A DNA stretch of 64,000 nucleotides from Candidatus Nomurabacteria bacterium (GTDB lineage: Bacteria > Patescibacteriota > Saccharimonadia > JAGOAT01): the NCBI GenBank assembly GCA_020639315.1, contig JACKGM010000001.1:18511-82510 (forward strand), given 5' to 3'. Below the pieces are notes generated by a model. It saw only the letters and a list, made by a program, of their open reading frames with translations, ran no database searches and had not been told where the DNA came from. Numbering within the stretch: the first letter of the stretch is position 1; every line of letters starts with the position of its first letter. Positions 591 to 64,000 of this stretch are shown one piece after another. The translations under genes were made by a program, and so were the position numbers.

Positions 591-650
591 CGGGGTCTGA
601 CCCCGAACTCGACATTGCTAACAGATATAAATCGTCGGGGTCTGACCCCG
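591..650 (+). repeat. Twin-palindrome module, type C (CGGGGTCTGACCCCG x2, 45-bp period, core AACAGATATAAA)
   Basis: Palindromes at 591-605 and 636-650. It lies in the divergent region upstream of the GalT-like gene. Confidence 0.9.
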
Positions 651-7412: not shown

Positions 7413-7421
7413 TGGTAAAAT
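7413..7421 (+). promoter_or_regulatory. Extended -10 promoter (TGGTAAAAT) 6 nt before the pepN ATG; predicted leaderless mRNA
   Basis: Sequence TGGTAAAAT-CCTAAT-ATG. No purine-rich SD. Confidence 0.55.
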
Positions 7422-7427
7422 CCTAAT

Positions 7428-9989
7428 ATGACAAAATTATCAAAAATCCCTCGACTAAGCAAACTACTCAAAATAGATAATTACCAACTAGAGCTCAAGA
7501 TAGATAGACCAGATTTGAGCTACTCAGGCAAAGTAATAATTGACGCGATTAGCCTGAGAGAACAGCCCACTATCCAGCTTCACAGTAATGGATTAGAGAT
7601 AGAAGATGTAAGGCTATCTACAGATTATCTTGAGTTAAGATCAACTAGCTTCAATCTAACACCAAGTGAAGATCTGATCCAAGTCACTCATCCAGACAAA
7701 TCCTCAGTCTTTACCAAGCACCAAAATCTTACCCTTGAGATTAGTTTTCGACGCAAGATTTCTGACAGTCTCCATGGAATTTATCCTTGCAGATATAAGA
7801 CCGACCAAGGTCAACCCGACTGGCTACTAGCGACCCAAATGGAGAGTCATTATGCCAGAGAAGTTTTTGTCTGTCTTGATGAGCCAAATGCAAAGGCAAA
7901 ATTTGACCTCACCATTATCCATAGTCCAGATGATACCTGTCTGAGCAATACCCCAATGCTCGAATCTGAATTGATCGACCAAAACTGGCAAAAGACTAGA
8001 TTTGCTCAAACCCCACTAATGTCTACTTACCTACTGGCAATAGTAATTGGTCAGCTAGAATACTTAGAGACCACAGCTGAAAGTGGTGTAAAAATTCGTA
8101 CATATGCTTTGCCAGACAAAGTTAAACAGACTCAATTTGCTCTAAATATTGCGAAAAAAGTGCTTGACATCTATGAGAGATTTTTTGAAATACCTTACCC
8201 ACTGAGCAAGCTAGATATGGTGGCATTGCCAGAATTTGAGGCATGTGCCATGGAAAACTGGGGGCTGATTACCTACCGTGAAGTCTGTTTGATCTATGAT
8301 TCTAGCTCGACCAATGTTTTTATCGAACAATTTATTGTCGAAGTTATTGCTCATGAGATTGCCCATCAATGGTTTGGCAATCTTGTCACCATGGATTGGT
8401 GGGAGGATCTTTGGCTAAATGAAGGATTTGCTAGCTGGATGGCAATCTATGCTGCCGACCAAATTTACCCCGAATGGAATTATTTTGAGCAATTTGTCGG
8501 GCTAGAAAGACGGAGCGCAATCGAACTCGATAGCCTCAAAGACTCTCATCCAATTGAAGTCCAGATAGATCATCCCGAACAAATCAAAACTGCATTCGAC
8601 CAAATCAGCTACGGCAAAGGTGCAAGTATTATTCATATGCTAGTTCATTTTATTGGTCTAGAAACTTTTCGCAAAGGTATAGTACTATACCTAAATCAGT
8701 ATAGTTACAAAAATGCTACCACTAGCCAGCTATGGTCAGCCCTAGAGCAAGTATCCGGCCAACCAATTACAGACTTGATGCCAAATTGGACAGAACAATC
8801 AGGCTTTCCCCTGATATCGATTGAAATCAACCAAACTACAATGACCCTCAAACAAAACCAATTTTCCTATCAACCAAACAGCAATGACCAGACTTGGTCT
8901 ATCCCGCTCAATTTCTCAGACACATCTTATAACCAACTCCTGATTGGTAGACAAACTGAGATAGAGTTATTAAGCCCCTCGGAATTGCCCCCGACCATCA
9001 ACCCTAATCAAGTTGGCTATTATCTAGTAAAATCAGACTCAACCTATCAAGATAGTCTCAAATCCAGACTTCAGGATAATCAACTCAGCAATCTTGATAT
9101 CCAGGCGATAATTCTTGATCACCTAATCCTTAGTATTAGGGGGGATAATAGTATTATTGATATAGTACCTATCCTGGAAAATGTAGCTAATTCATCTACA
9201 AGTTTCCTGGTCTGGTCAGCAATATCTGAGGTGATTAGTGAACTCAGAATAAACTTTTACCCAGATAGATCCCAATTCGCCCCCCTATCAATCTGGGTTC
9301 AAAAATTGATCAAGTTGCCCCTCGACCAGCTAGCTTGGCAGCCCGTCCCCGAAGAGCCAAAAAACCTTGCCCAGCTAAGAACCTTACTGCTTGGACTGGC
9401 CCTTACGTACGATTATCAGCCGATAAAAGATTGGTTGAATCAACTACCTCTCCTAACCCATCCCGACTTAGACCGTCTTTCGCTAAAGGCAAAACTCAAG
9501 GCTCAGCCAGTCGAATTTCAAGCAGAGCTACTAAACATCTACACCCAGGAATCCAACCAACAAAAGACTTCCGACTACATTTCGGCTTTGTCCAGTCAGT
9601 CAGAATTAAATCAATTCGACCAACTCTGGCAATTTGTGATGTCTGACAGTGTGCGCAAACAGGACTTCCGTGCGTGGCTAACCAACCTCGGTAGCAACCT
9701 AAGCTTACAACCTGGCTACCTTGATAAAATGTTTTCTGACTACCCCCAAATCGTTACCAAGCTTGATGGCAAAGAGCCAATTGCCAGGATTTTTGATAGT
9801 ATTGCTAGGTTTTTTGCCAACCCCAAATCCTACAAATTATTCAAAAATTTTACCGACCAAGATAATCCTGCTATTCAAAGAAGCTATGACCAACTGATTG
9901 AGATGATTGAGCTAAGGTTGGAATTTCAAAAGCGTGAACGAGCCAGAGTGCTAGACTACTTAAATCAGCATGGACATCCCAATGAATAA
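7428..9989 (+). CDS. pepN: Aminopeptidase N (M1 family zinc metallopeptidase)
   Basis: 853 aa with a GAMEN-type motif (EACAMENWG) and the zinc site HEIAHQWFGNLVTMDWWEDLWLNEGFA. Confidence 0.92.
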   Translation: MTKLSKIPRLSKLLKIDNYQLELKIDRPDLSYSGKVIIDAISLREQPTIQLHSNGLEIEDVRLSTDYLELRSTSFNLTPSEDLIQVTHPDKSSVFTKHQNLTLEISFRRKISDSLHGIYPCRYKTDQGQPDWLLATQMESHYAREVFVCLDEPNAKAKFDLTIIHSPDDTCLSNTPMLESELIDQNWQKTRFAQTPLMSTYLLAIVIGQLEYLETTAESGVKIRTYALPDKVKQTQFALNIAKKVLDIYERFFEIPYPLSKLDMVALPEFEACAMENWGLITYREVCLIYDSSSTNVFIEQFIVEVIAHEIAHQWFGNLVTMDWWEDLWLNEGFASWMAIYAADQIYPEWNYFEQFVGLERRSAIELDSLKDSHPIEVQIDHPEQIKTAFDQISYGKGASIIHMLVHFIGLETFRKGIVLYLNQYSYKNATTSQLWSALEQVSGQPITDLMPNWTEQSGFPLISIEINQTTMTLKQNQFSYQPNSNDQTWSIPLNFSDTSYNQLLIGRQTEIELLSPSELPPTINPNQVGYYLVKSDSTYQDSLKSRLQDNQLSNLDIQAIILDHLILSIRGDNSIIDIVPILENVANSSTSFLVWSAISEVISELRINFYPDRSQFAPLSIWVQKLIKLPLDQLAWQPVPEEPKNLAQLRTLLLGLALTYDYQPIKDWLNQLPLLTHPDLDRLSLKAKLKAQPVEFQAELLNIYTQESNQQKTSDYISALSSQSELNQFDQLWQFVMSDSVRKQDFRAWLTNLGSNLSLQPGYLDKMFSDYPQIVTKLDGKEPIARIFDSIARFFANPKSYKLFKNFTDQDNPAIQRSYDQLIEMIELRLEFQKRERARVLDYLNQHGHPNE

Positions 9990-11292
9990 CTCCAATACCC
10001 CTTCCCTAGCTCGATCTACCCTCTTGGTGGTAATTTTAGCTTCTATTTTACCCTTTGGTCTTTTGATGGAAGGTACACTTGACTCAGGTCTTAGCTTTGC
10101 CGGATTAATGCTCAAGATCAGCTCAGTATCTGGGTTGATCGCCGGGGTATTATTGTTTTGGCAAATGCTGATTGGTAATCGGTTTTTTAGTATCCTAGTC
10201 ACAGATGACATCCTCTGGGTCAATCGAATTCATCGGCTAATCGGTAAGTATGGTGCAAGCTTTGCCTTAATCCATCCGATTGCAGTCACACTTGCTTATG
10301 GCAAGTCTCTAGCCTGGATAGTATTACCTGACCTGCCACTCAGCATAAATGATCCTTACCAACGGGCTTTGGCATTTGGTCGGATTGGACTTGCCCTGCT
10401 ACTAATTATCTGGTTATCAAGTGTCGCTCTTCGTTCGGCAATCAAATATCGTCCTTGGCTCTACTTGCACTATCTATCCTACCCAATGTTGGCCCTGATC
10501 CTGCTTCATGCCAAGGAGATCGGTAGCAGTATTGCGGTCTACCCAGTGCTTGAAGCAGCTTGGATCACTCTGATGATCTTATCGGTACTACTATTACTGG
10601 CTAGGATTTACCAGTCTACTAGTCTAGACAAAATACCTTATACAGTTGTTAAGACCCAAGCATCTGGAGATATTGTAGTATTGACATTAAAACCTCAAAA
10701 GCCTAACCGGCCTATCACCCCCAGCATTGGTCAGTATTGCTATATCCAATCTGGTAAATTTGCTAATTCCCATCCCTATAGTGTTCTCCATTATCAGGCA
10801 GATAATGGGCTACTTTATTTTGCCGTCAAGCAGATTGGCAAACAATCAGTAGCGCTTAATAACCTAAAGCTAGAATCCACACTCTATCTAGATGGTCCCT
10901 ATGGTAGCTTCCTGACCAGACTCGATAGCTCTATTCCCACCATTTCAATTGTCGGTTCAGTTGGAATCGCGCCATTGTTTGATCACGTTTTAAGCAACCC
11001 ATCTAACAATTATTTAATTTATTGCGGGATGCGCCAATCAGATTTGATTTTTGCCAATAAGCTTAAATCCAAACTTGGTAGTCACTACCAGCAAATTATT
11101 TCTGATGGGACTGATCCTTACAAAATTACCCCTGAGAAGATTGAGGATTTTTTAAGTAATCAAGGCTTAACAGTACCAGCAGTTCAGTTTTTGATTTGTG
11201 GTAGTCCAGGATTCAACCGTGGGATCAAGCAGATGGTTTGTCAGCTTGGCGCTAGTGAGGCTCAAATCCGAATCGAGGACTTCGGTCTATAA
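9970..11292 (+). CDS. NOX/ferric-reductase-like bis-haem transmembrane flavoprotein (FRD domain + FAD + NAD(P)H domains)
   Basis: 440 aa. Two TM His pairs show the NOX-type spacing (IHRLIGKYGASFALIH = 13 between; LHYLSYPMLALILLH = 12 between). It also has the FAD motif HPYSV, plus GPYG, GSVGIAPL and a C-terminal CGSPGF. Confidence 0.8.
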   Translation: MDIPMNNSNTPSLARSTLLVVILASILPFGLLMEGTLDSGLSFAGLMLKISSVSGLIAGVLLFWQMLIGNRFFSILVTDDILWVNRIHRLIGKYGASFALIHPIAVTLAYGKSLAWIVLPDLPLSINDPYQRALAFGRIGLALLLIIWLSSVALRSAIKYRPWLYLHYLSYPMLALILLHAKEIGSSIAVYPVLEAAWITLMILSVLLLLARIYQSTSLDKIPYTVVKTQASGDIVVLTLKPQKPNRPITPSIGQYCYIQSGKFANSHPYSVLHYQADNGLLYFAVKQIGKQSVALNNLKLESTLYLDGPYGSFLTRLDSSIPTISIVGSVGIAPLFDHVLSNPSNNYLIYCGMRQSDLIFANKLKSKLGSHYQQIISDGTDPYKITPEKIEDFLSNQGLTVPAVQFLICGSPGFNRGIKQMVCQLGASEAQIRIEDFGL

Positions 11293-11301
11293 GCACCCAC
11301 T

Positions 11302-11565
11302 GTCATCCTCCGAAACCCGCCCCTTGTCTTGTCATCCTCCGAAGCTCGGAGAGCTTACGGGGGATCTAGCATTTTGCATTTCCTATGACCAATTCAAATA
11401 CTGGATCTCCGGTATTACCCTTCGGGTAATCCGAAGATGACAGAGGAGAGAATTGTCATCCTCCGAAACCCGGAGGGTTTACGGGGGATCCAGTATTTCT
11501 GCATTGTGCGCCGTCATCCTCAAAGTCTAGCGACCTTCATCTGGAGCTAGACTTTGGGGATCCAG
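11302..11565. repeat. Family-A hairpin repeat cluster (5 units, both orientations) between convergent genes
   Basis: Units present: GTCATCCTCCGAAGCTCGGAGAGCTTACGGGGGATCTAG; rc GTCATCTTCGGATTACCCGAAGGGTAATACCGGAGATCCAGTATTTGAAT; GTCATCCTCCGAAACCCGGAGGGTTTACGGGGGATCCAGTATT; GTCATCCTCAAAGTCTAGC...GCTAGACTTTGGGGATCCAG. Confidence 0.92.
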
Positions 11566-13156: not shown

Positions 13157-13320
13157 TATAGCAAGTTAAAAACAAAACCAGACTTTTGACCCAACTATAG
13201 AGTCTATAAAGCTAGTTTTCTTACTCACCATATCTATGGATATGGCTCTTAAGAAGAACTAACTTTCTAGTTCTCTATAGTACAGCTCAAATTGTCCGGT
13301 TTTGTTTTGAGCTTGCTATA
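13157..13320 (+). mobile_element. MITE family B, full copy (164 bp foldback)
   Basis: Termini are TATAGCAAGTTAAAAACAAAACCAGAC...CCGGTTTTGTTTTGAGCTTGCTATA. The whole element is an imperfect palindrome centred on CCATATCTATGGATATGG. Confidence 0.9.
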
Positions 13321-14217: not shown

Positions 14218-14312
14218 TAAACTTTCTCCCTTCAAATATTATATTCCAACCAGATATTTTAGCAGATCTGTTTCAATATATCAATAAAAAATTTACCCCC
14301 AGTTACCCCCTT

Positions 14313-14475
14313 AGACTTGTTCCCCAATAAGGTTTTCGGACCCAAACCGCCTATTTTGGACTATAATAATCTTTTCACTTCATCACCTTAACTCTGTTAG
14401 GGCTCTTTACGAAAAGACTATTCTAGTCTCAAACTAGGCAATCTTGGTCTCAAAAATTATTGGGGAAACAAGTCT
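14313..14475. mobile_element. MITE family H (163 bp), single copy in window
   Basis: Perfect 18-bp TIR AGACTTGTTCCCCAATAA / TTATTGGGGAAACAAGTCT. Confidence 0.75.
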
Positions 14476-14557
14476 TTTGTCATCCGCCCTTTGACTGAAG
14501 GAAAAGTCGATAATCCAGATTTCTTGAACACATTGCGTTATTTACTTTTGTTTTATT

Positions 14558-14718
14558 AACCCTGTTGCCATATAACCTCACGGCTTCAAAACTGCCATTT
14601 TTGCTCCAGACTAGCAAAACACTTCGCAGCGTAACTCCTGTTATGCTTTGTCGTGTTTTGGTATTCTGGAATAAAAATCATCAGCTTTGAACTCGCAAGT
14701 TTATATGGCAACAGGGTT
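14558..14718 (+). mobile_element. MITE family F (161-bp core, ATT on both flanks)
   Basis: Perfect 18-bp TIR AACCCTGTTGCCATATAA / TTATATGGCAACAGGGTT. It is 159/161 identical to the copy at 35363-35523. Confidence 0.92.
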
Positions 14719-14756
14719 ATTGTTAGTTTTCTTGAGTATCTGAAGGCGTAAAAGTG

Positions 14757-14803
14757 CGAGATCCTGGATCCCCCGTAAGTTCTTCGAACTTGGGAGGATG
14801 ACA
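14757..14803 (-). repeat. Family-A unit
   Basis: The rc reads GTCATCCTCCCAAGTTCGAAGAACTTACGGGGGATCCAGGATCTCGC. Confidence 0.85.
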
Positions 14804-14806
14804 GGA

Positions 14807-14845
14807 GTTGGGTCAAAAGTCTGGTTTTGTTTTTAACTTGCTATA
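14807..14845 (-). mobile_element. MITE family B, terminal fragment
   Basis: GTTGGGTCAAAAGTCTGGTTTTGTTTTTAACTTGCTATA. Confidence 0.8.
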
Positions 14846-14866
14846 TATACTCATAATTTGTTACTT

Positions 14867-14926
14867 CGGGGTCAGACCCCGTCAATTTATATCTGTTAAG
14901 GATGCCAACTTCGGGGTCAGACCCCG
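14867..14926 (-). repeat. Twin-palindrome module, type C
   Basis: CGGGGTCAGACCCCG at 14867-14881 and 14912-14926 (45-bp period). The core TTTATATCTGTT lies between them. Confidence 0.9.
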
Positions 14927-14962: not shown

Positions 14963-14971
14963 TGGTAAAAT
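14963..14971 (+). promoter_or_regulatory. Extended -10 (TGGTAAAAT) 7 nt before ATG 14979
   Basis: TGGTAAAAT-ATGAAAT-ATG. Confidence 0.5.
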
Positions 14972-14978
14972 ATGAAAT

Positions 14979-18289: not shown

Positions 18290-18657
18290 TAGGATTGAAT
18301 TCTGGTAATGCGAAATACTGGATCCCCCGTAATCCTCTATGAGGATTCGGAGGATGACAATACACCCCAGTCATCTTCCAAAATCCTGTAAGGATTTATG
18401 GGAGATCCATCTCCCCAGCGTCATCCTCGACTTTTCCGCCCTTCATTTGAAGGAAAAGTTGGGGATCCAGACTTCTAGATAATGGGTTAGGGTTTAGGTA
18501 ATACAGTTACTTTTTATGCTTATTGTTAGTTTTCTGGATACCCAGAGCAAGCTCTGAGTATGACGGATGCAAATGCAGAGATACTGGATCCCCCGTAAGT
18601 TCTCCGAACTTCGGAGGATGACAGAAGAGGAGTAGGTTTCGGAGGATGACAAGACAA
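18290..18657 (+). repeat. 368-bp direct repeat, copy 1 (itself a cluster of family-A hairpin units)
   Basis: I read it base for base as identical to 20559-20926 (offset 2269 bp), running from TAGGATTGAATTCTGGTAATGCG to GGAGGATGACAAGACAA. Confidence 0.93.
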
Positions 18658-18855: not shown

Positions 18856-19021
18856 TATAGCAAGCTCAAACCAAAACTAGACAATTTGAGCTGTACTATA
18901 GAGAACTATAAAGGTAGTTCTTCTTAAGAGCCATATCCATATAGGTATGGTGAGTAAGAAAACTAGCTTGATAGACTCTAGAGTTGGGTCAAAAGTCTGG
19001 TTTTGTTTTTAACTTGCTATA
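18856..19021 (-). mobile_element. MITE family B, full copy (inverted relative to 13157-13320)
   Basis: TATAGCAAGCTCAAACCAAAACTAGAC...GGTTTTGTTTTTAACTTGCTATA, collinear with the other copies. Confidence 0.9.
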
Positions 19022-20347: not shown

Positions 20348-20440
20348 GAAACCCCCTTACTATATAACTTAATTGGTCTTTATATATTGACTATAACAGT
20401 CTTGAGAAAAATAGTCCACAGAACCAACCTTGCTACAAAA

Positions 20441-20530
20441 GCCATATCCAAAGATATGGTGAGGAAGAAAACTAGCTTTATAGACTCTAGAGTTGGGTCA
20501 AAAGTCTGATTTTGTTTTTAACTTGCTATA
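20441..20530 (-). mobile_element. MITE family B, right half only
   Basis: GCCATATCCAAAGATATGGTGAGGAAGAAAACTAGCTTTATAGACTCTAGAGTTGGGTCAAAAGTCTGATTTTGTTTTTAACTTGCTATA. Confidence 0.85.
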
Positions 20531-20558: not shown

Positions 20559-20926
20559 TAGGATTGAATTCTGGTAATGCGAAATACTGGATCCCCCGTA
20601 ATCCTCTATGAGGATTCGGAGGATGACAATACACCCCAGTCATCTTCCAAAATCCTGTAAGGATTTATGGGAGATCCATCTCCCCAGCGTCATCCTCGAC
20701 TTTTCCGCCCTTCATTTGAAGGAAAAGTTGGGGATCCAGACTTCTAGATAATGGGTTAGGGTTTAGGTAATACAGTTACTTTTTATGCTTATTGTTAGTT
20801 TTCTGGATACCCAGAGCAAGCTCTGAGTATGACGGATGCAAATGCAGAGATACTGGATCCCCCGTAAGTTCTCCGAACTTCGGAGGATGACAGAAGAGGA
20901 GTAGGTTTCGGAGGATGACAAGACAA
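20559..20926 (+). repeat. 368-bp direct repeat, copy 2
   Basis: Identical to 18290-18657. It is followed (20927-20996) by extra tandem family-A half units. Confidence 0.93.
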
Positions 20927-21016
20927 GGGGCGGGTTTCGGAGGATGATAGGAGAGAGATGGGTTTCGGAGAATGACAGAAAGGGAGTAGGGTTTCAAAAA
21001 CTAGACTTCAATCAAC

Positions 21017-28620: not shown

Positions 28621-29048
28621 ATTTGTATCCGTCATACTCAGAGCTTGCTCTGGGTATCCAGAAAACTAACAACCAACATTAAAAGTAACTGGGTTAACTC
28701 AATACATTCAATCCATTATCTAGAGTTCTGGATCCCCAACTTTTCCTTCAAATCAAGGGCGGAAAAGTCGAGGATGACCCAAACTCCTGTCATCCTCCGA
28801 AACCCGTCCCTCTCTTGTCATCCTCCGAAACCCGCTCCTTGTCTTTGTTATCCTCCGAAGCTCGGAGAGCTTACGGGGGATCCAGTATTCCTGCATTGCC
28901 TTGAGATTCAATTCAAATACTGGATCTCCGGTATTTCTCTAAAGAGAAATCCGAATATGACACGAAGGGGGGCGGAAATTTGGGCTGTTGGCAGAGAAGG
29001 GATTGTCATCCTCCGAAACCCGGAGGGTTTACGGGGGACCTTGTATTG
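28621..29048. repeat. Family-A hairpin repeat cluster
   Basis: Begins GTCATACTCAGAGCTTGCTCTGGGTATCCAG and includes tandem half units and head-to-head doublets. It ends GTCATCCTCCGAAACCCGGAGGGTTTACGGGGGACC. Confidence 0.92.
28789..28935 (+). repeat. 147-bp direct repeat, copy 1 (family-A composite) left of the RelE/DinJ cassette
   Basis: 144/147 identical to 29750-29896. The differences are two G/A changes in CCGAAACCC versus CCAAAACCC, and GTTATCC versus GTCATCC. Confidence 0.9.
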
Positions 29049-29749: not shown

Positions 29750-29896
29750 GTCATCCTCCAAAACCCGTCCCTCTCTTGTCATCCTCCAAAACCCGCTCCT
29801 TGTCTTTGTCATCCTCCGAAGCTCGGAGAGCTTACGGGGGATCCAGTATTCCTGCATTGCCTTGAGATTCAATTCAAATACTGGATCTCCGGTATT
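29750..29896 (+). repeat. 147-bp direct repeat, copy 2, right of the RelE/DinJ cassette
   Basis: See copy 1. The offset is 961 bp. Confidence 0.9.
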
Positions 29897-30103
29897 ACCC
29901 TTCGGGTAATCCGAAGATGACACGGGAAGGGATTGTCATCCTCCGAAACCCGGAGGGTTTACGGGGGATCCAGTATTCCTGCATTGCCTTGAGATTCAAT
30001 TCAAATACTGGATCTCCGGTATTACCCTTCGGGTAATCCGAAGATGACACGGGAAGGGATTGTCATCCTCCGAAGTTCGGAGAACTTACGGGGGACCTTG
30101 TAT
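29750..30103. repeat. Family-A hairpin repeat cluster with an internal ~100-bp tandem duplication
   Basis: The block ...CCAGTATTCCTGCATTGCCTTGAGATTCAATTCAAATACTGGATCTCCGGTATTACCCTTCGGGTAATCCGAAGATGACACGGGAAGGGATTGTCATCCTCCGAA... occurs twice in tandem. Confidence 0.92.
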
Positions 30104-30129
30104 CTCGTACTCCTACCAGGAGGCCACCC

Positions 30130-30456: not shown

Positions 30457-30491
30457 AAGACTATTGTAGCATATGATATGATTAATAACAT

Positions 30492-32167: not shown

Positions 32168-32204
32168 AGATTGTCCAAATTCCTCGATCCATCCTCTATG
32201 TCTT

Positions 32205-32372
32205 GTCATCCTCCGAAGTTCGGAGAACTTACGGGGGATCCAGCATTTCTGTATTACTGGGCAACTAATTCAAATACTGGATCTCCGGTATTACCCTCCG
32301 GGTAATCCGAAGATGACGAGGAGAGGGTTGTCATCCTCCGAAGTTCGGAGAACTTACGGGGGATCCAGTATT
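32205..32372. repeat. Family-A hairpin repeat cluster between convergent genes
   Basis: GTCATCCTCCGAAGTTCGGAGAACTTACGGGGGATCCAG occurs twice, flanking an inverted GGTATTACCCTCCGGGTAATCCGAAGATGAC unit. Confidence 0.92.
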
Positions 32373-32409
32373 CCTGTATTTAATCGGTATTCACTTCAAA
32401 TACCAAGCA

Positions 32410-34143: not shown

Positions 34144-34149
34144 AGCCTA

Positions 34150-34158
34150 ATTGTATCA
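34150..34158 (-). promoter_or_regulatory. Extended -10 (TGATACAAT) 6 nt before the proS ATG
   Basis: Minus strand reads TGATACAAT-TAGGCT-ATG. Confidence 0.55.
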
Positions 34159-34211
34159 CCTTTCTCCACAGTAAGACATTCCCCTAAAAGTGACCCCCAT
34201 TTTTGCCATTT

Positions 34212-34270
34212 CAAGGGCACCCCTTGAGCATTTATATCTGTAAAAAAATTATTTTCAAGGGCACCCCTTG
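34212..34270 (-). repeat. Twin-palindrome module, type D (CAAGGGCACCCCTTG x2)
   Basis: Palindromes at 34212-34226 and 34256-34270 (44-bp period), with core TTTATATCTGT. It lies between divergent proS and infC. Confidence 0.9.
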
Positions 34271-35128: not shown

Positions 35129-36072
35129 CTAACTCACCTCCTGCCCTAGTGCTGCTCGTATTACAAACCTTGTGACCCCTGTATTACCTAGATCTAATGG
35201 GGCTACATAGCCCCTGGGTACCCTATAATCTTCCCTCGTATCGACAATCTGCCGCCTTACCCTATCTGGCACTTTCTCAACCTCTGATTTCCTATTACGA
35301 TAGTTCACTACTCTAGAGAGACCAACTGCCCCTAAGAAGGCACCTAGCCCGGCAAATCTATTAACCCTGTTGCCATATAACCTCACGGCTTCAAAACTGC
35401 CATTTTTGCCCCAGACTAGCAAAACACTTCGCAGCGTAACTCCTGTTATGCTTTGTCGTGTTTTGGTATTCTGGAATAAAAATCATCAGCTTTGACCTCG
35501 CAAGTTTATATGGCAACAGGGTTATTGCTCGAAATATCATTAACCCCCAGCCCAGCCATTCCACTAGTAGGAATATCTACAAACCAGTCCCTCAGCCTTT
35601 GGCGATTTTGATATTTTCTTATAGTCTCTGGATATTTTTTGGATTCAGCATAAAACTTCAATCCGTTGATTAGGGCTTGCATCAAGCGCTGATTGTATCT
35701 TATAGTGAACTCTTCCCACTCTAATTTCTCCTCAGAATCTAGGTCGGGCAATAGCTTTAAGTAGATTTGACCTAAAGAGACCAATAACCTTGCATTATCA
35801 CCATCTTGCTCTGGTTGAATAAACTGCCAACTATCACCTTCATCGTCTACTGACAGGCCAGTAAAGACAATCTCTAGTTCTGATAAATCTGGCTTATCCT
35901 CAATATTGGGCAGCCCAAAAGCATCATAATACCCTCTCAAGTATTGAAGGAGATCCTTTTGCCATTCTTCCTCAACTAAACCCTCACCAAATAGCATATG
36001 AAGTGCTGGACTATCCTCAATGGTAATCTTAGGTAGTTTTCTCTCGTAACTATTGTTTGTTTCAGGGGTCAT
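35129..36072 (-). pseudogene. Orphan gene split by a 161-bp MITE (track ORFs 35506..36072 and 35129..35422)
   Basis: The MITE core 35363-35523 sits between the two ORFs. It supplies the stop of the upstream part and the first 20 codons of the downstream part. Removing 161, 164 or 167 bp joins them in frame (...GVNDISS-N-RFAGLGAFLG...), giving about 259 aa. Confidence 0.7.
35363..35523 (+). mobile_element. MITE family F inserted in a coding region
   Basis: Same TIRs, flanked by ATT (35360-35362 and 35524-35526). It separates two same-strand ORFs that become one on excision. Confidence 0.92.
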
Positions 36073-36114: not shown

Positions 36115-36278
36115 TATAGCAAGCTCAAAACAAAACCGGACAATTTGAGCTGTACTATAGAGAACTAGAAAGGTAGTTATTCTTAAGAGCCATATTCATA
36201 GATATGGTGAGTAAGAAAACTAGCTTTATAGACTCTAGAGTTGGGTCAAAAGTCTGGTTTTGTTTTTAACTTACTATA
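36115..36278 (-). mobile_element. MITE family B, full copy
   Basis: TATAGCAAGCTCAAAACAAAACCGGACAATTTGAGCTG...GGTCAAAAGTCTGGTTTTGTTTTTAACTTACTATA. Confidence 0.9.
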
Positions 36279-36330
36279 AATACGAACAAACTGCAAGCAT
36301 AAGCCTAATTAACCCCAGACCAATAACTAT

Positions 36331-37989: not shown

Positions 37990-38384
37990 GTCACCAAACC
38001 AAAACCCCGCAGGGATTTATGGGAGACCCACCTCCTCTGTCATCTTCGGATTACTCTTTAGAGTAATACCGGAGATCCAGTATTTGAGTTAGCCACAGGC
38101 AATATGGAATGCTGGATCCCCCGTAAGTTCTCCAAACTTCGGAGGATGACAATACAATACACAATGCCGAATACTGGATCCCCCGTAAACCCTCTGGGTT
38201 TCGGAGGATGACAAGACAATGCCATTAACTTAAGAAAAAGCCAGTATCTTTTGACATCCTATTAAAGCTTGATTTGTACATTGAATAAAACTTGCAAAAG
38301 CTTAAGTTAATGGCATTGAGATGACAGGAGAAGGACGGGTTTCGGAGGATGACAATCCTCTCCTCCGTCATCTCCGGTATTTGA
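37990..38384. repeat. Family-A hairpin repeat cluster downstream of rplT
   Basis: Includes GTCACCAAACCAAAACCCCGCAGGGATTTATGGGAGACCC, GTCATCTTCGGATTACTCTTTAGAGTAATACCGGAGATCCAGTATTTGAG and several inverted units. Confidence 0.9.
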
Positions 38385-39066: not shown

Positions 39067-39226
39067 GCATACCCAAAACAAAACCGGACAATTTGGGATT
39101 ACTAATAAAGAGCTAGAAAGTTAGTTCTTTATATGAACCTTACTTATAAGTAAGGTGAATAGAAAAACTAGATTTGTAGACTTTAGTAGTGGGTCAAAAG
39201 GCTGGTTTTGTTTTGAGTATGCTATA
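39063..39226 (-). mobile_element. MITE family B, subfamily 2, full copy
   Basis: TATAGCATACCCAAAACAAAACCGGACAATTTGGG...GGGTCAAAAGGCTGGTTTTGTTTTGAGTATGCTATA. Its left terminus abuts the gmk start. Confidence 0.9.
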
Positions 39227-39258
39227 TATCATAGGATTTGTGACTATACTGAGCATTT

Positions 39259-39363
39259 CCAGGGGATCTCTGATCCAATTTGCTAAGGAAATTTGAAAGA
39301 TGACAGAAGGAGGGTGCATTGTCATCCTCCGAAACCCAGAGGGTTTACGGGGGATCCAGTATT
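39259..39363. repeat. Family-A head-to-tail pair
   Basis: An inverted unit ...GATCCAATTTGCTAAGGAAATTTGAAAGATGAC, then GTCATCCTCCGAAACCCAGAGGGTTTACGGGGGATCCAGTATT. Confidence 0.88.
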
Positions 39364-43400: not shown

Positions 43401-43460
43401 CGCGAACTGTTCGCGGTTTTTGCCACTTTGCCAGATTAGAAATGTCGCGAACTGTTCGCG
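43401..43460 (-). repeat. Twin-palindrome module, type E (CGCGAACTGTTCGCG x2)
   Basis: Palindromes at 43401-43415 and 43446-43460 (45-bp period). The spacer is GTTTTTGCCACTTTGCCAGATTAGAAATGT. It lies 13 nt from the -10 of the sugar transferase gene. Confidence 0.9.
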
Positions 43461-43543: not shown

Positions 43544-43603
43544 CGGGGTCAGACCCCGTTATTTTATATCTGTTGGGAAGGTCAGTTTCGGGGTCAGACC
43601 CCG
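43544..43603 (-). repeat. Twin-palindrome module, type C
   Basis: CGGGGTCAGACCCCG at 43544-43558 and 43589-43603 (45-bp period), with core TTTATATCTGTT. It lies upstream of the sugar transferase operon. Confidence 0.9.
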
Positions 43604-45029: not shown

Positions 45030-45193
45030 TATAGCAAGTTAAAAACAAAACCAGACTTTTGACCCAACTCTAGAGTCTATAAAGCTAGTTTTCTTCTTCA
45101 CCATATCTATGGATATGGCTCTTAAGAAGAACTAACTTTCTAGTTCTCTATAGTACAGCTCAAATTATCCGGTTTTGTTTTGAGCTTGCTATA
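45030..45193 (+). mobile_element. MITE family B, full copy
   Basis: Near-identical to 13157-13320 over its full length. Confidence 0.9.
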
Positions 45194-47946: not shown

Positions 47947-47957
47947 CTCATATAGTC

Positions 47958-47963
47958 TATAAT
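47958..47963 (+). promoter_or_regulatory. -10 box TATAAT 6 nt before ATG 47970
   Basis: TATAAT-ACAACT-ATG. Confidence 0.45.
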
Positions 47964-47969
47964 ACAACT

Positions 47970-48849: not shown

Positions 48850-49252
48850 TACTACTACTCCATCTGGAGTCTCATGCAGTAAAGAATAAGCTGTAGCCCG
48901 TCATATCTTTTAACATTACTATTCAAATTAAGTTGCCAAAGTGCCAAATCAAACCCCAGTCTCGTTTCTTCTGTGGGAGGCTAGATCACCAACGTTGAAG
49001 TCCTCTGGGAATACTAGCTCACTATTCATATCCATACTGATATTGTAACACCTTGGCAAGAAATAAAATATTAGATACATAAACGGGATACTCGCCACTC
49101 GTTGCTTACATCAAATCACTATCGAATTGAATACAAGTCTTGAATATCCCGTATTTACAATTCGATATTGGCTAGTGCGCCGATATTAATGTGATGTAAG
49201 CAAATTAATCCTAGCATAGTGCTTACGCTTCTAGCAACCATTTCACCCATTT

Positions 49253-49311
49253 CAAGGGCACCCCTTGCAGTTTTCTATCTGTAAGAGATGCTTTTTCAAG
49301 GGCACCCCTTG
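49253..49311 (-). repeat. Twin-palindrome module, type D
   Basis: Palindromes at 49253-49267 and 49297-49311 (44-bp period), with core TTTCTATCTGT. Confidence 0.9.
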
Positions 49312-49403: not shown

Positions 49404-49535
49404 ATTACTGGATCCCCCGTAAACTCCTTCGGAGTTTCGGAGGATGACAGGAGAGGGGCGAGTTTTGAATATGATAGGAGTTGGGTCACCAAACCAAAAT
49501 CCCACAAAGATTTATGGGATATCCAGTATTTGAAT
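49404..49535. repeat. Family-A hairpin repeat cluster
   Basis: rc GTCATCCTCCGAAACTCCGAAGGAGTTTACGGGGGATCCAGTAAT, and GTCACCAAACCAAAATCCCACAAAGATTTATGGGATATCCAGTATTTGAATT. Confidence 0.9.
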
Positions 49536-50424: not shown

Positions 50425-50750
50425 GTAGTTTCCCCTGGAACCTTGGGAGATGACAATAACCTCTGCTGTCATTTTCCAAAATCCCGCCCCTATTCTCGTT
50501 ATCTTCCAAATTTCCTTTAGGAAATTATGGGAGCTCCACCCTCCTCCTGTCATCTTCGGATTACCCCTTGGGGTAATACCGGAGATCCAGTATTTGAATT
50601 AGACCCATAATAATGCAAAATACTGGATCCCCCGCAAGTTCTCCGAACTTCGGAGGATAACAATGCTCCCTCTGTCATCTTCCAAATTTCCGTAGGAAGT
50701 TATGGGGCACTTTCCTATTACTATTTAAGAGATCCAGTATTTGAATTTGG
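50425..50750. repeat. Family-A hairpin repeat cluster in a divergent intergenic region
   Basis: Includes GTCATCTTCGGATTACCCCTTGGGGTAATACCGGAGATCCAGTATTTGAATT, rc GTTATCCTCCGAAGTTCGGAGAACTTGCGGGGGATCCAGTATT, and GTCATCTTCCAAATTTCCGTAGGAAGTTATGGGG. Confidence 0.9.
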
Positions 50751-52136: not shown

Positions 52137-52150
52137 TGGGGCTATATTAG

Positions 52151-52367
52151 ACTGGATCCCCCGTAAGTTCCCCGAACCTCGGAGGATGACAGAAGTCGAG
52201 TCACCAGCCCAAATTTCCACCCTACTTTCGTGTCATCTTCCAAATTTCCATAGGAAATTATGGGATCCAATATTTGAGTTGAATCCCGAGGAATGCAAAA
52301 TACTGGATCCCCAGTAAACCCTCTGGGTTTCGGAGGATGACAAGAGAGGGGCGGGTTTCGGAGAGTA
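52151..52367. repeat. Family-A hairpin repeat cluster between convergent genes
   Basis: Includes GTCATCTTCCAAATTTCCATAGGAAATTATGGGATCCAATATTTGAG and two inverted GGATCC...GGAGGATGAC units. Confidence 0.9.
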
Positions 52368-56101: not shown

Positions 56102-56161
56102 GGCGAACTGTTCGCGGTTTTTGCCACTTTACCAGATTGGAGATGTCGCGAACTGTTCGCG
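56102..56161 (-). repeat. Twin-palindrome module, type E
   Basis: GGCGAACTGTTCGCG at 56102-56116 and CGCGAACTGTTCGCG at 56147-56161 (45-bp period). The spacer is GTTTTTGCCACTTTACCAGATTGGAGATGT. It lies upstream of glmS. Confidence 0.9.
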
Positions 56162-57774: not shown

Positions 57775-57945
57775 CACAAGTACAATCATATACCGAGCTA
57801 CCTTGTATCGTCAAGTACTTAGCATAAGTTTTATAGCAAAACTTGTGGATAACTTCTACCGTGTCGCAGAATAACTGTTCGGTATAGCCCCCTTCCCTTG
57901 TTCGGTACCGAACACTCTCCCTCCAAAAAATCACAAGCACTTCTG

Positions 57946-58005
57946 CAAGGGGTGCCCTTGAAAATCACTATGTCAACAGATATAAAATTGCAAGGGGTGC
58001 CCTTG
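57946..58005 (+). repeat. Twin-palindrome module, type D
   Basis: CAAGGGGTGCCCTTG at 57946-57960 and 57991-58005 (45-bp period), with core AACAGATATAAA. It lies between divergent padR and rsmI. Confidence 0.9.
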
Positions 58006-58008
58006 AAA

Positions 58009-58017
58009 TGGTAAAAT
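58009..58017 (+). promoter_or_regulatory. Extended -10 (TGGTAAAAT) 7 nt before the rsmI ATG, immediately after the second type-D palindrome
   Basis: CCCTTGAAA-TGGTAAAAT-TGGGGGT-ATG. Confidence 0.5.
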
Positions 58018-58024
58018 TGGGGGT

Positions 58025-62218: not shown

Positions 62219-62291
62219 GATATTAGATCCCCCGTAATCCCCTATGAGGATTTGGAGGATGACAAAAGAGAGGCGGGTTCCGAAGGACGAC
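62219..62291 (-). repeat. Family-A unit plus half unit
   Basis: The rc reads GTCATCCTCCAAATCCTCATAGGGGATTACGGGGGATCTAATATCTCGC. Confidence 0.85.
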
Positions 62292-63622: not shown

Positions 63623-63786
63623 TATAGCATACCCAAAACAAAACCAGATAATTTGGGACTACTAATAAAGAGCTAGAAAGTTAGTTCTTTTTTGTGAACC
63701 TTACTTATAGTAAGGTGAATAGAAAAACTAGATTTGTAGACTTTAGTAGTGGGTCAAAAGGCTGGTTTTGTTTTGAGTATGCTATA
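63623..63786 (-). mobile_element. MITE family B, subfamily 2, full copy
   Basis: Near-identical to 39063-39226, with a handful of substitutions and a 1-nt indel in the centre. Confidence 0.9.
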
Positions 63787-64000
63787 CTACTATTATAACA
63801 TTTGGCTTAGGATTTTTATCAAAAAAGCAAACAATTTTGGCTAGATAATAAACTAAGTGACCAACAATCTGCCTAACTTTTGGCAAAAATAATAATGCCG
63901 TTGCTTGTAAAACAGCTCACAAAAGTATGATCGTAAATCGTCCAAATAAACACAACCAAAAACTTTCGACCAATTGGGGAATTCTTGGGGATCCAGAACT

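What the first reader, a model, noticed from the sequence alone, without database searches (positions are those of the whole stretch)
57946..58005. Twin-palindrome modules: two identical 15-bp (7-1-7) palindromes exactly 44-45 bp apart, in three sequence types sharing one architecture
There are eight modules.
- Type C (CGGGGTCTGACCCCG) is at 591-650, 14867-14926 and 43544-43603.
- Type D (CAAGGGGTGCCCTTG) is at 34212-34270, 49253-49311 and 57946-58005.
- Type E (CGCGAACAGTTCGCG) is at 43401-43460 and 56102-56161.

Start-to-start spacing is 45 bp in six modules and 44 bp in two. Types C and D have unrelated palindromes but share the inner layout: a palindrome (followed by GAA), about 14 variable nt, (A)ACAGATATAAA, 4 nt, then the palindrome again followed by GAA(A/G)T. 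In type D the first palindrome ends in TTGAAA, and 17 nt later comes TATAAA, so the module contains a sigma70-like promoter of its own.

All modules lie in 5' intergenic regions: GalT-like gene, proS/infC, padR/rsmI, sugar transferase and glmS. They usually sit 15-50 nt upstream of the gene-proximal -10 box. A swapped palindrome inside a fixed scaffold looks like either a family of paired operators for paralogous dimeric regulators or a mobile promoter/regulatory cassette. I do not recognise it as a described element.
Basis: partly seen in the sequence, partly recalled or inferred. Interest (0 to 1): 0.75.

Follow-up and report, generated by a model that had tools for sequence, protein, structure and literature searches.

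The report
Twin-palindrome promoter-side repeat elements
A small uncultured (CPR/Patescibacteria) bacterium carries, next to gene starts, many copies of a 60-80-bp DNA element made of two identical short palindromes 45 bp apart; the palindromes stay identical within a genome but differ between two sister species, so they look like a new type of dispersed regulatory repeat, though what they do is not yet known.

Summary
Eight modules sit at the stated coordinates, each with two copies of a 15-bp dyad-symmetric site 44-45 bp apart, against a chance expectation of about 0. Small corrections: type D is 6-3-6, not 7-1-7; one E2 copy has a mismatch; D2 has a variant core.

The genome is a Patescibacteria MAG that uses leaderless mRNAs with extended -10 boxes (TGGTAAAAT).

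A sister genome (ProS 89% identical, about 74% DNA identity) has a module of the same type at 3 of 3 testable orthologous loci. Its palindromes differ by 2-3 nt, and the change is the same in both copies and at every locus. This is concerted evolution, and it includes one symmetric G:C to A:T swap. Two sister copies are 100% identical over about 75 bp with sharp edges, which indicates a copy-paste event. More distant relatives and the public collections hold none.

The inner TATAAA is not a convincing promoter. In D3 the real promoter (TTGCAA-18-TAAAAT, TG-extended) has the second palindrome in its spacer, and the sister genome keeps this arrangement.

Best reading: a lineage-specific dispersed repeat family that supplies paired, type-specific protein-binding sites at promoters. 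Its main rival is a REP/IS200-like hairpin element. Neither binding nor mobility has been shown.

The parts
57946..58005 (+). Module D3 (the finding). P1 is 57946-57960, the core ACAGATATAAA is 57976-57986, and P2 is 57991-58005. It lies in the padR-rsmI divergent spacer.
   Evidence: the orthologous module in the sister genome is at L033:9806-9865
57988..58017 (+). rsmI promoter, TTGCAA-18-TAAAAT with TG (TGGTAAAAT at 58009-58017). P2 fills its spacer. The ATG at 58025 lies 7 nt after the -10 box, so the mRNA is leaderless.
   Evidence: the promoter scan calls it; the sister genome keeps TTGCAA..TGCTAAAAT-7 nt-ATG; the same TGGTAAAAT box sits 6-14 nt before three other ATGs
34212..34270 (-). 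Module D1, 44-bp spacing, in the infC-proS divergent spacer. Its right extension is AAATGGCAAAAAT. The proximal leaderless proS promoter TACAAT lies 56 nt further on.
   Evidence: orthologue at L010:3342-3401
49253..49311 (-). Module D2, 44-bp spacing, variant core ACAGATAGAAA. It lies downstream of the LssY-like gene and is followed by a 400-nt ORF-free stretch.
591..650 (+). Module C1. It lies 26 nt upstream of the TAAAAT box of the GalT-like gene, in a divergent spacer. Its right extension AAGTAGGGATTTTGGGG is shared with the sister genome's C' elements.
14867..14926 (-). Module C2, in a divergent spacer. P1 lies 53 nt from the ATG of gene 14979(+). On the P2 side it is followed by a truncated MITE and a second-family repeat.
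   Evidence: orthologue at L031:12197-12256
43544..43603 (-). Module C3. It lies 62 nt after the lysA stop codon and in tandem with E1, upstream of the polyprenyl glycosylphosphotransferase gene.
43401..43460 (-). Module E1. The repeat unit extends to 27 bp (GCAAAAAC-P-ACAT). P2 is centred near -35 of the TATAAT box of the leaderless sugar-transferase promoter.
56102..56161 (-). Module E2. It starts 10 nt after the pepQ-like stop codon and lies about 105 nt upstream of the glmS ATG. The gene-proximal copy has one mismatch.

Best explanation
Each module is one copy of a lineage-specific dispersed repeat family of about 60 bp, or 75-85 bp with its right extension.

Anatomy. The element carries two identical copies, in direct orientation, of a 15-bp dyad-symmetric site with 5-7-bp arms, an asymmetric centre and a following GAA. 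The two sites bracket 29-30 bp. This interval holds a free-to-vary stretch of about 12 nt, a conserved core (A)ACAGATATAAA, and 4 variable nt.

Proposed mechanism. I propose that the palindromes are double-stranded binding sites for a sequence-specific dimeric protein, one protein per palindrome type (C, D, E). Two dimers bound 45 bp apart, with the core as a bend or a third contact, would form a small complex on or just upstream of the extended -10 promoters that fire this organism's leaderless mRNAs. Where the downstream site lies inside the promoter, occupancy should exclude RNA polymerase and so repress. This is the case in D3, where P2 sits between TTGCAA and TGGTAAAAT, and in E1, where P2 is centred near -35.

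Homogeneity. The family is kept uniform within a genome, and differs between genomes, through copy-and-paste or gene conversion together with co-evolution with its binding protein. REP/BIME and Correia-type repeats behave in the same way.

Shown: the anatomy, the position relative to promoters, the conservation pattern, the concerted evolution and one copy event.

Inferred: protein binding, the direction of regulation and the homogenising mechanism.
For: - The palindromes and the core are invariant while the stretch between them is not. There are no substitutions in 6x15 nt of type C or of type D, whereas the 12-14-nt variable part differs by about 30-60% between copies.
- In A1, the alignment of ten C/D-type modules from both genomes, the invariant columns are C1, G4, G5, T8, C11, C12 and G15 of each palindrome, GAA, and ACAGAT..AAA.
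- Symmetric covariation holds across types and species. Positions 2:14 and 3:13 run GG/CC (C), GA/TC (C') and AA/TT (D, D').
- Modules of the same type sit at 3 of 3 testable orthologous loci (proS, rsmI, the C2 locus), although the two genomes share only about 74% nucleotide identity.
- In D3, P2 lies in the spacer of the only promoter the scan calls. That arrangement, including TGnTAAAAT and the 7 nt to the ATG, is conserved in the sister genome.
- In all four co-directional contexts the module points the same way as the flanking genes: 3 spacers in the window and 1 in the sister.
- Palindrome types loosely track function. E sits at glmS and the sugar-phosphate transferase; D sits at proS and rsmI.
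- P1 and P2 are direct copies, including their asymmetric centres. Selection is therefore for two identical sites rather than for P1:P2 complementarity.
Against: - Full identity over 15 nt plus GAA in every copy carries far more information than a regulon of this size needs. Real operator sets are degenerate.
- The asymmetric centre (GTG, CTG, CAG) is conserved although a symmetric dimer should not read it. This fits hairpin-loop recognition better.
- Genome-wide concerted change of dozens of sites is hard to explain by point mutation plus selection.
- The distance from P2 to the proximal start site is not fixed (about -27, -35, -47, -76, -82).
- A centre-to-centre distance of 45 bp is 4.3 helical turns, so the two sites are not on the same face of the helix.
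- No candidate binding protein was identified. The window holds only a PadR and an ArsR/MarR-like protein, and PadR has its own conserved palindrome.
- The enrichment near gene starts is weak statistically (P about 0.1).
Confidence: 0.4

Rival explanations
1. The module is a REP/PATE-like non-autonomous mobile element. On this reading the palindromes act as single-stranded DNA hairpins (6-bp stem, 3-nt loop, followed by GAA). An HUH tyrosine transposase (a RAYT or an IS200/IS605 TnpA-like enzyme) encoded elsewhere in the genome recognises them, with one enzyme per type. Any promoter effect is incidental or was acquired later.
For: - Copies are perfectly identical within a genome, including the loop bases, and the variants are genome-specific.
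- Two sister-genome copies 2.3 kb apart are 100% identical over about 75 bp, with sharp edges at the start of P1 and 15 nt after P2. The window has no module upstream of TGT.
- The two hairpins lie on the same strand, as the left and right ends of IS200/IS605 do.
- Several families with one shared architecture parallel the three REPIN/RAYT pairs of Pseudomonas fluorescens SBW25 (my own knowledge, not tested here).
- Short-read contigs end inside modules.
- The genome is rich in repeats, including a 164-bp MITE and a family of more than 27 hairpin copies.
- The family is restricted to this lineage.
Against: - Three of three orthologous loci are occupied by the same type, so mobility is low.
- The ORFs scanned in the window (Pfam and NCBIfam) gave no transposase or HUH hit.
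- There is no conserved target sequence left of P1 and no target-site duplication.
- The pairs are direct, whereas BIME/REPIN pairs are inverted.
- The modules sit at gene 5' ends, whereas REPs favour 3' ends.
- The variable stretch is not homogenised along with the palindromes.
Confidence: 0.27
2. The module acts at the RNA level. When transcribed, P1 pairs with P2 into a 12-14-bp stem around a 30-nt loop, or forms two small hairpins. This structure would serve as a terminator or insulator, a processing site (RNase III-like), or a single-unit guide RNA of the TIGR stem-loop kind.
For: - The predicted minimum-free-energy folds pair P1 with P2. Energies run from -24 to -38 kcal/mol, with z-scores down to -5.4 for type C.
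- On the opposite strand, P2 followed by TTTATAT is called terminator-like.
- TIGR stem-loop units are palindromes flanking two short spacers and a loop, are common in CPR bacteria, and can act as repressors (PMC12045711; doi 10.64898/2026.09.09.750476).
- The 29-30-nt interval here is close to the 26-30 nt I estimate for such a unit from the dual-repeat dimensions in PMC12045711 (9-nt spacers, 8-12-nt repeats).
Against: - P1 and P2 are direct copies, so their centres mismatch when they pair.
- The changes seen in the sister genome are not compensatory for P1:P2 pairing or for the D hairpin (G6 to A breaks a pair).
- D1, D3, C1 and C2 lie in divergent spacers with no upstream co-directional transcription, and D3 lies upstream of a leaderless start site, so it is probably not transcribed.
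- No U-tract follows the stem on the sense strand.
- The variable layout (about 12 nt, then 11-12 conserved, then 4) does not give two 8-12-nt spacers.
- No Nop/Tas hit was found among the window ORFs.
- Rfam finds nothing.
Confidence: 0.1
3. The module is a self-contained sigma70 promoter cassette. The -35 box is the TTGAAA at the end of P1, the -10 box is the inner TATAAA, and transcription starts in P2.
For: - TTGAAA-16/17-TATAAA is present in D1 and D3; D2 has TTGAAA-16-TAGAAA.
- The 29-30-bp interval equals the length of a core promoter.
Against: - TATAAA lacks the -7 T found in all good -10 boxes of this genome, and the scan does not call it.
- Type C has no -35 at the right distance.
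- Type E lacks the motif altogether.
- In the sister genome the motif is TCAAAA in both D' modules.
- A start inside P2 would give short leaders with no usable ribosome-binding site in a genome that relies on leaderless starts.
Confidence: 0.07

Closest known systems
REP / BIME elements, including BIME-1 (RIP/RIB: REP - IHF site - REP), and the REPIN-RAYT systems of Proteobacteria
   Same: - They are short, extragenic, palindromic units in many copies.
- Two units bracket a conserved linker that binds a protein.
- Several families coexist in one genome.
- Consensus sequences are species-specific and evolve in concert.
- Elements persist at orthologous positions.
   Different: - The units here are 15 bp, against 20-40 bp for REPs.
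- The two units here are direct copies, not inverted ones.
- The conserved flank here is a 3' GAA, not a 5' GTAG.
- The elements here sit at gene 5' ends and overlap promoters, rather than lying at 3' ends.
- No RAYT gene was seen.
- The host is a CPR/Patescibacteria bacterium.
Correia elements (CREE/NEMIS) of Neisseria, a MITE with an IHF site and outward promoters
   Same: - It is a small non-coding dispersed element in intergenic DNA.
- It has terminal repeats around a central protein-binding motif.
- It can supply a promoter for the adjacent gene, as D3 supplies the spacer and the extended -10 box of rsmI.
- The terminal repeats can pair in RNA.
   Different: - Correia elements are 100-155 bp long, with 26-bp inverted terminal repeats and a TA target duplication.
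- The elements here are 60-85 bp long, have direct copies of a self-complementary site, and show no target duplication.
- The elements here come in three palindrome types on one scaffold.
Paired or auxiliary operators that bracket a promoter (for example lac O1/O3, gal OE/OI, controller-protein C-boxes)
   Same: - Two identical dyad-symmetric sites flank or overlap a core promoter.
- Both half-sites covary symmetrically.
- The type is conserved at a given gene across species.
   Different: - Known operator sets are degenerate and gene-specific.
- Here the sites are identical at every locus, always paired at 44-45 bp, embedded in a shared scaffold, and copied between loci.
TIGR-Tas stem-loop guide RNA units (Faure et al. 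2025, PMC12045711; Xu et al. 2026 preprint)
   Same: - Palindromic sequences flank an interval of similar length (29-30 nt here; about 26-30 nt by my estimate from the dual-repeat dimensions).
- The systems are common in CPR bacteria.
- Nuclease-dead versions repress transcription.
   Different: - There are no two variable 8-12-nt spacers around a roughly 9-nt loop.
- No box C/D pattern is recognisable.
- The units are not arranged in arrays.
- No Tas gene is nearby.
- The palindromes here are identical, whereas those of TIGR units vary.

Membership tests
REP/BIME (RAYT-associated) | A multi-copy, extragenic, imperfect palindrome able to form a hairpin | tested here: met
   There are 16 copies in 64 kb, all intergenic, with 6-bp stems and 3-nt loops. 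They are shorter (15 nt) than typical REPs.
REP/BIME (RAYT-associated) | A conserved GTAG tetranucleotide at the 5' foot of the hairpin | tested here: not met
   The 4 nt before each palindrome vary. The conserved flank is a 3' GAA(A/G).
REP/BIME (RAYT-associated) | Units paired in inverted orientation (BIME/REPIN) | tested here: not met
   P1 and P2 carry the same asymmetric centre and the same 3' GAA on the same strand, so they are direct copies.
REP/BIME (RAYT-associated) | A RAYT gene in the genome, usually flanked by REPs | not testable with these tools
   No Y1 transposase hit among the window ORFs scanned with Pfam or NCBIfam. The rest of the genome, including the 445-kb contig, could not be fetched.
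MITE / Correia-like | Terminal inverted repeats plus a target-site duplication | tested here: not met
   No duplication flanks any module, nor the fresh copy in the sister genome. By contrast, a true MITE with 23-bp inverted terminal repeats is present in the window.
MITE / Correia-like | A discrete unit copied to new sites | tested here: met
   The copies at L031:9879 and L031:12197 are 100% identical over about 75 bp with sharp edges, and the window has no module at the TGT locus. Gene conversion into an older module cannot be excluded.
IS200/IS605-derived element (PATE) | Subterminal hairpins on the same strand at both ends | tested here: met
   The two palindromes are in direct orientation.
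IS200/IS605-derived element (PATE) | Insertion 3' of a conserved 4-5-nt target | tested here: not met
   The left flanks are TTTT, TATT, TTGT, TTTT, AATG, TCTG, AAAC, TTGT, GCCA and TCGG. They tend to be T-rich, but no fixed word is shared.
CRISPR mini-array | Repeats of at least 23 nt, unrelated spacers, and a leader or cas genes nearby | tested here: not met
   The repeat is 17-20 nt, the 'spacer' holds a conserved 11-nt core, and the window has no cas gene. The sister genome's CRISPR (Cas12d) has an unrelated repeat.
TIGR stem-loop tigRNA | Two variable 8-12-nt spacers with box C/D motifs around a roughly 9-nt loop, flanked by palindromes, and a Tas (Nop-domain) gene | tested here: not met
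   The layout is 2 conserved + 12 variable + 12 conserved + 4 variable nt. Pfam gives no Nop hit in the window. The feature definitions come from PMC12045711.
Transcription-factor operator pair | Dyad symmetry with symmetric covariation of the half-sites | tested here: met
   Positions 2:14 and 3:13 covary across C, C', D and D'.
Transcription-factor operator pair | Overlap with, or a fixed register to, the regulated promoter | tested here: inconclusive
   P2 lies inside the promoter in D3, where the arrangement is conserved, and in E1. In C1, D1 and E2 it is centred 47-82 nt upstream of the predicted start (26-62 nt before the -10 box).
Transcription-factor operator pair | A cognate DNA-binding protein | not testable with these tools
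   The window holds only a PadR and an ArsR/MarR-like protein. No binding data exist.
sigma70 promoter inside the module | A -35 and a -10 box with A at -11 and T at -7, conserved in relatives | tested here: not met
   The scan does not call it. TATAAA has become TCAAAA in the sister genome.

The most novel reading that the evidence does not exclude
The modules are a natural 'standard part' system. One promoter-side cassette is copied to many housekeeping genes, and swapping both palindromes assigns a gene to one of several paralogous regulators. Regulator specificity and all of its sites then drift together genome-wide, through copy-paste rather than site-by-site mutation. If so, a reduced CPR genome would run much of its transcription control through a mobile, co-evolving operator library. 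No such mode of regulon evolution has been described.
Probability: 0.2. Interest if true: 0.8.

Novelty: new variant of a known kind. Interest (0 to 1): 0.55.

Why it matters
Almost nothing is known about how CPR/Patescibacteria bacteria control transcription. These modules are compact, sharply defined and lie beside promoters, and they show clear signs of selection: invariant sites next to free-to-vary bases, symmetric covariation, and the same type kept at orthologous genes. They therefore offer a direct handle for testing regulation in these organisms.

They also show concerted evolution of dispersed 15-bp sites between two genomes. This bears on an open question for REP-like elements: how short repeats and the proteins that read them stay matched. 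The modules also break short-read assemblies of this lineage, which matters for anyone assembling genomes from metagenomes.

Tried and rejected
- **Type D 18-mer in 185,579 species genomes.** It gave 9 single hits, and the three loci inspected showed no twin module. The two in a Gottesmanbacteria contig pair it with an inverted partner only 6-7 bp away, inside what look like coding regions. The sister loci were reached instead through 90%-identity cluster members.\n- **Variable stretch as a guide.** No complementarity beyond chance was found to downstream genes or anywhere else in the window.\n- **Rfam.** No match reached any family's gathering score across the window, and permissive scans of the C2 and D2 regions gave only weak chance-level hits.\n- **Modules as ends of a larger transposon.** Orientations and partners do not pair up, and the genes between them are housekeeping genes. 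Rejected.\n- **CRISPR mini-array and TIGR unit.** Both rejected on anatomy (see the membership tests).\n- **Intrinsic terminator on the sense strand.** No U-tract follows the stem.\n- **Small ORF inside D3 (14 aa).** It is absent from the sister genome, so it was dropped.\n- **Empty-site comparison for the extra sister copy upstream of TGT.** The locus is rearranged in the window, so no clean empty site was available.

Full report
**Observation**

The sequence at 57946-58005 reads CAAGGGGTGCCCTTG, then AAAATCACTATGTCAACAGATATAAAATTG, then CAAGGGGTGCCCTTG, and continues AAATGGTAAAATTGGGGGTATG into rsmI.

- Pattern searches find the type D 15-mer six times (0.11 expected by chance), the type C palindrome at six sites (0.02 expected) and the type E palindrome at four sites (0.00 expected). 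All hits are at the stated coordinates and nowhere else.
- Scans that do not assume the sequence recover these eight pairs. One looked for any direct repeat 20-120 bp apart. The other looked for pairs with at least 13/15 identity, spacing 35-55 bp and hairpin-like symmetry, and found no further twin-palindrome module.
- The core ACAGATATAAA, allowing one mismatch, occurs seven times. Six of these are inside the C and D modules.
- Small corrections apply:
  - Type D is 6-3-6 with an asymmetric GTG centre.
  - One E2 copy has a mismatch that a closely related strain lacks.
  - D2 has ACAGATAGAAA.
  - The distance from the second palindrome to the gene-proximal -10 box ranges from 6 to about 62 nt.

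**Organism and promoter grammar**

- The window's ProS is 100% identical to a protein named 'Candidatus Saccharibacteria bacterium'. Other window proteins carry the name 'Candidatus Nomurabacteria bacterium' and lie on a 445,775-bp contig. The genome is therefore a CPR/Patescibacteria MAG.
- The next ProS is 89% identical (GCA_017983775.1). All further ones are 59% or less.
- The upstream regions of first genes show a -10 box (TAAAAT, TACAAT, TATAAT, often preceded by TGn) ending 5-8 nt before the ATG at many genes. The organism therefore makes many leaderless mRNAs from extended -10 promoters.
- TGGTAAAAT occurs four times in the window, each time just upstream of a gene start: 6-7 nt before three of the ATGs and 14 nt before lysA.

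**Anatomy of the modules**

A1, an alignment of ten C/D-type modules from both genomes, gives these invariant columns:

- C1, G4, G5, T8, C11, C12 and G15 of each palindrome;
- the following GAA;
- ACAGAT..AAA in the core.

The roughly 12 nt after the first GAA and the 4 nt before the second palindrome vary freely. Types C and D are therefore one family on a shared scaffold.

Their palindromes differ mainly at positions 2:14 and 3:13. These covary symmetrically: GG/CC in C, GA/TC in the sister genome's C', and AA/TT in D.

- Type D carries a conserved right extension, AAATGG-n-AAAAT-GG.
- C1 and the sister genome's C' share another right extension, AA(G/A)T(A)GGGATTTT(T)GG.
- Type E has the same geometry but a different interior.

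**Position relative to promoters**

- In D3 the scan calls one promoter on the plus strand, TTGCAA-18-TAAAAT preceded by TG (57988-58017). P2 fills its spacer, and the rsmI ATG follows 7 nt after the box.
- The inner TTGAAA-17-TATAAA is not called, because it lacks the -7 T.
- In E1, P2 is centred near -35 of a TATAAT box that lies 6 nt before the ATG.
- In C1, D1 and E2 the module lies 26-62 nt upstream of the proximal -10 box.
- All eight modules are in spacers that hold a gene start, four in divergent spacers and four in tandem spacers. However, 0 of 10 convergent gaps (27% of intergenic bases) is only P about 0.11.
- In all four co-directional contexts the module points the same way as the flanking genes: three spacers in the window and one in the sister genome.

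**Comparison with the sister genome**

Three loci of GCA_017983775.1 were fetched (L010, L031, L033). They hold five modules, all with 45-bp spacing.

- The infC-proS and padR-rsmI spacers hold D-type modules. In both, the palindrome is CAAGGAGTCCCCTTG (twice) and the core is ACAGATCAAAAA.
- The spacer orthologous to C2 holds a C-type module with CGAGGTCTAACCTCG.
- All three window loci that could be tested therefore carry a module of the same type in the sister genome. This holds although rsmI DNA is only 74% identical between the two genomes.
- Within each genome the copies are identical, bar single mismatches in one window copy and one sister copy. Between genomes they differ by 2-3 nt, and the difference is the same in both copies of a module and at all loci.
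- Neither genome holds the other's variant, and neither holds a solo palindrome.
- In type C the change at position 3 (G to A) is matched at position 13 (C to T), which keeps the symmetry. The central changes do not keep the symmetry.
- The 4 nt before P2 (ATTG) and the extended -10 box are retained at rsmI. This argues for descent at the locus rather than re-insertion.

**Evidence for copying**

- Two C' modules in L031 lie 2.3 kb apart. One is upstream of TGT, where the window has no module. They are 100% identical from the start of P1 to 15 nt after P2, with unrelated flanks.
- At the C2 locus the right extension differs in kind between the two genomes, which suggests replacement by another family member.
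- A separate 180-bp inverted duplication in L010 is a segmental duplication of the proS promoter region. It includes the first proS codons, so it is not element mobility.
- Contigs from short-read assemblies of the window's own species start or end inside modules.
- More distant relatives (ProS 55-58% identical) have no twin repeats.
- Scans of species genomes and metagenomes found no further twin-palindrome modules.

**What this implies**

The palindromes and the core are functional where they sit. They stay invariant beside bases that diverge at near-neutral rates, and the type is conserved at a given gene.

P1 and P2 are direct copies, including their asymmetric centres. Selection therefore acts on two identical sites read in one orientation, not on P1:P2 complementarity. 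This holds even though the predicted RNA or single-strand fold pairs P1 with P2.

A trans-acting factor that reads sequence must exist for each type. It must differ between the two genomes.

Two arguments point to copying or gene conversion as well as selection:

- Each site carries much more information than a regulon of this size needs (my estimate is about 15 bits for some 70 sites in a 1-Mb genome).
- The change between the two genomes is concerted across all loci.

My best reading is a dispersed, promoter-side repeat family that supplies paired binding sites for type-specific DNA-binding proteins, repressive where P2 lies inside the promoter (confidence 0.4). The main rival is a REP/IS200-like element read as single-stranded hairpins by an HUH enzyme (0.27). 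The conserved loop bases and the copy event favour this rival. The direct orientation of the pair, the lack of a target word, the 5' location and the stable orthologous positions speak against it. RNA-level readings (0.1) and the inner-promoter reading (0.07) fare worse.

**Comparison with known systems**

- REP/BIME-1 and Correia elements share the plan 'palindrome, protein site, palindrome', the multi-copy extragenic habit and species-specific consensus sequences. The defining GTAG, the inverted pairing, the terminal inverted repeats with target duplication, and the size are not met.
- TIGR stem-loop guide units were considered because CPR bacteria carry them and nuclease-dead versions repress transcription (PMC12045711; doi 10.64898/2026.09.09.750476). 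They share palindromic edges, and by my estimate from the dual-repeat dimensions (about 26-30 nt) a similar interval length. The two variable spacers are missing, and no Tas gene was seen.
- Promoter-coupled terminators were also considered (doi 10.64898/2026.08.19.745784). They offer a precedent for a stem-loop sequence serving as the upstream half of a promoter, as P2 does in D3. They do not explain the twin.
- I found no description of this element in the paper library.

**Verdict**

The feature is real, restricted to this lineage and under selection. It is best filed as a new variant of dispersed intergenic palindromic repeats with a promoter-side role. The mechanism is unresolved. The decisive tests are a whole-genome census, 5'-end mapping, and binding assays that compare double-stranded and hairpin DNA.

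Noticed in passing
window 11300-11540, 14760-14800, 18310-18650, 20580-20970, 28770-29030, 29750-30110, 32200-32375, 38070-38350, 39320-39360, 49405-49450, 50580-50680, 52150-52340, 62220-62265; also L010:14882, L031:5723: A second and far more abundant repeat family has at least 27 copies in 64 kb. Its form is TTGTCATCCTCCGAA-[6-7-bp stem with a 3-nt loop]-TTACGGGGGATCCAGTATTyCTGCATT. The inner stem covaries freely between copies (GTTC/GAAC, ACCC/GGGT, GCTC/GAGC, TCCTC/GAGGA, ACTCC/GGAGT). Copies lie mostly at gene 3' ends and are often preceded by 1-3 truncated 28-29-bp tandem units. It has no meaningful Rfam match. It looks like a structured RNA or single-strand element and deserves its own study.
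   Followed up: partly
window 45030-45193, 13157-13320, about 18860-19021, about 20370-20530, about 36115-36280, about 39070-39245, about 63630-63790; truncated copy at 14807-14845: A 164-bp MITE with 23-bp terminal inverted repeats (TATAGCAAGTTAAAAACAAAACC ... GGTTTTGTTTTGAGCTTGCTATA) folds into a long hairpin. There are 8 copies in two subfamilies. The copy next to C2 is cut by an insertion of the second repeat family. From memory only, and not tested: its first 14 nt (ATAGCAAGTTAAAA) match the S. pyogenes tracrRNA.
   Followed up: partly
window 14557-14719 and 35359-35527: A 169-bp segment is about 75% self-complementary. It is present twice at 99% identity, once in the ORF-free stretch downstream of C2.
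   Followed up: no
L010:9375-14704 (= L031:216-5545): The sister genome has Cas1, a CRISPR array (26-nt repeat CCCCGAAAAATATGGGGAAAAAGGC, 17-18-nt spacers, at least 12 repeats) and a 1160-aa Cas12d/CasY (NCBIfam E = 0). The system is inserted between the DUF4446 and ChlI-like genes, and the window lacks it at the syntenic spot. It is a known system type. Its 43-44-bp period matching the module spacing is a coincidence.
   Followed up: yes
window 57899-57914 (and a half-site at about 57883-57895); L033 intergenic 9786-10001: A perfect 16-bp palindrome, TGTTCGGTACCGAACA, plus an upstream TGTTCGGTA half-site lie between padR and D3. Both are fully conserved in the sister genome. This is probably PadR's own operator, and it is distinct from the module palindromes.
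   Followed up: partly
window-wide; for example 7413-7427, 14963-14978, 30457-30475, 34144-34160, 47950-47969, 58009-58024: Many first genes have a -10 box (often TGnTAnAAT) ending 5-8 nt before the ATG and no Shine-Dalgarno sequence. Leaderless expression therefore seems common in this CPR lineage. glmS is an exception, with a 38-nt leader and GGGGAAAG.
   Followed up: partly
L010:3250-3430 versus L010:6835-7015: In the sister genome, about 180 bp of the infC-proS spacer is duplicated in inverted orientation after an extra 535-aa membrane-protein gene that the window lacks. The duplicated piece includes the module and the first proS codons.
   Followed up: yes
L037:1-60, L038:2865-2891, L032:1-77: Short-read contigs of the same species or its sister start or stop inside modules. 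The modules therefore fragment assemblies of this lineage.
   Followed up: partly
window 14236-14866 and 48850-49252: Two ORF-free stretches of 630 and 400 nt lie downstream of C2 and D2. The first is a mosaic of repeats. The second has no match in the window or in Rfam, so an unrecognised RNA gene or a decayed gene is possible.
   Followed up: partly
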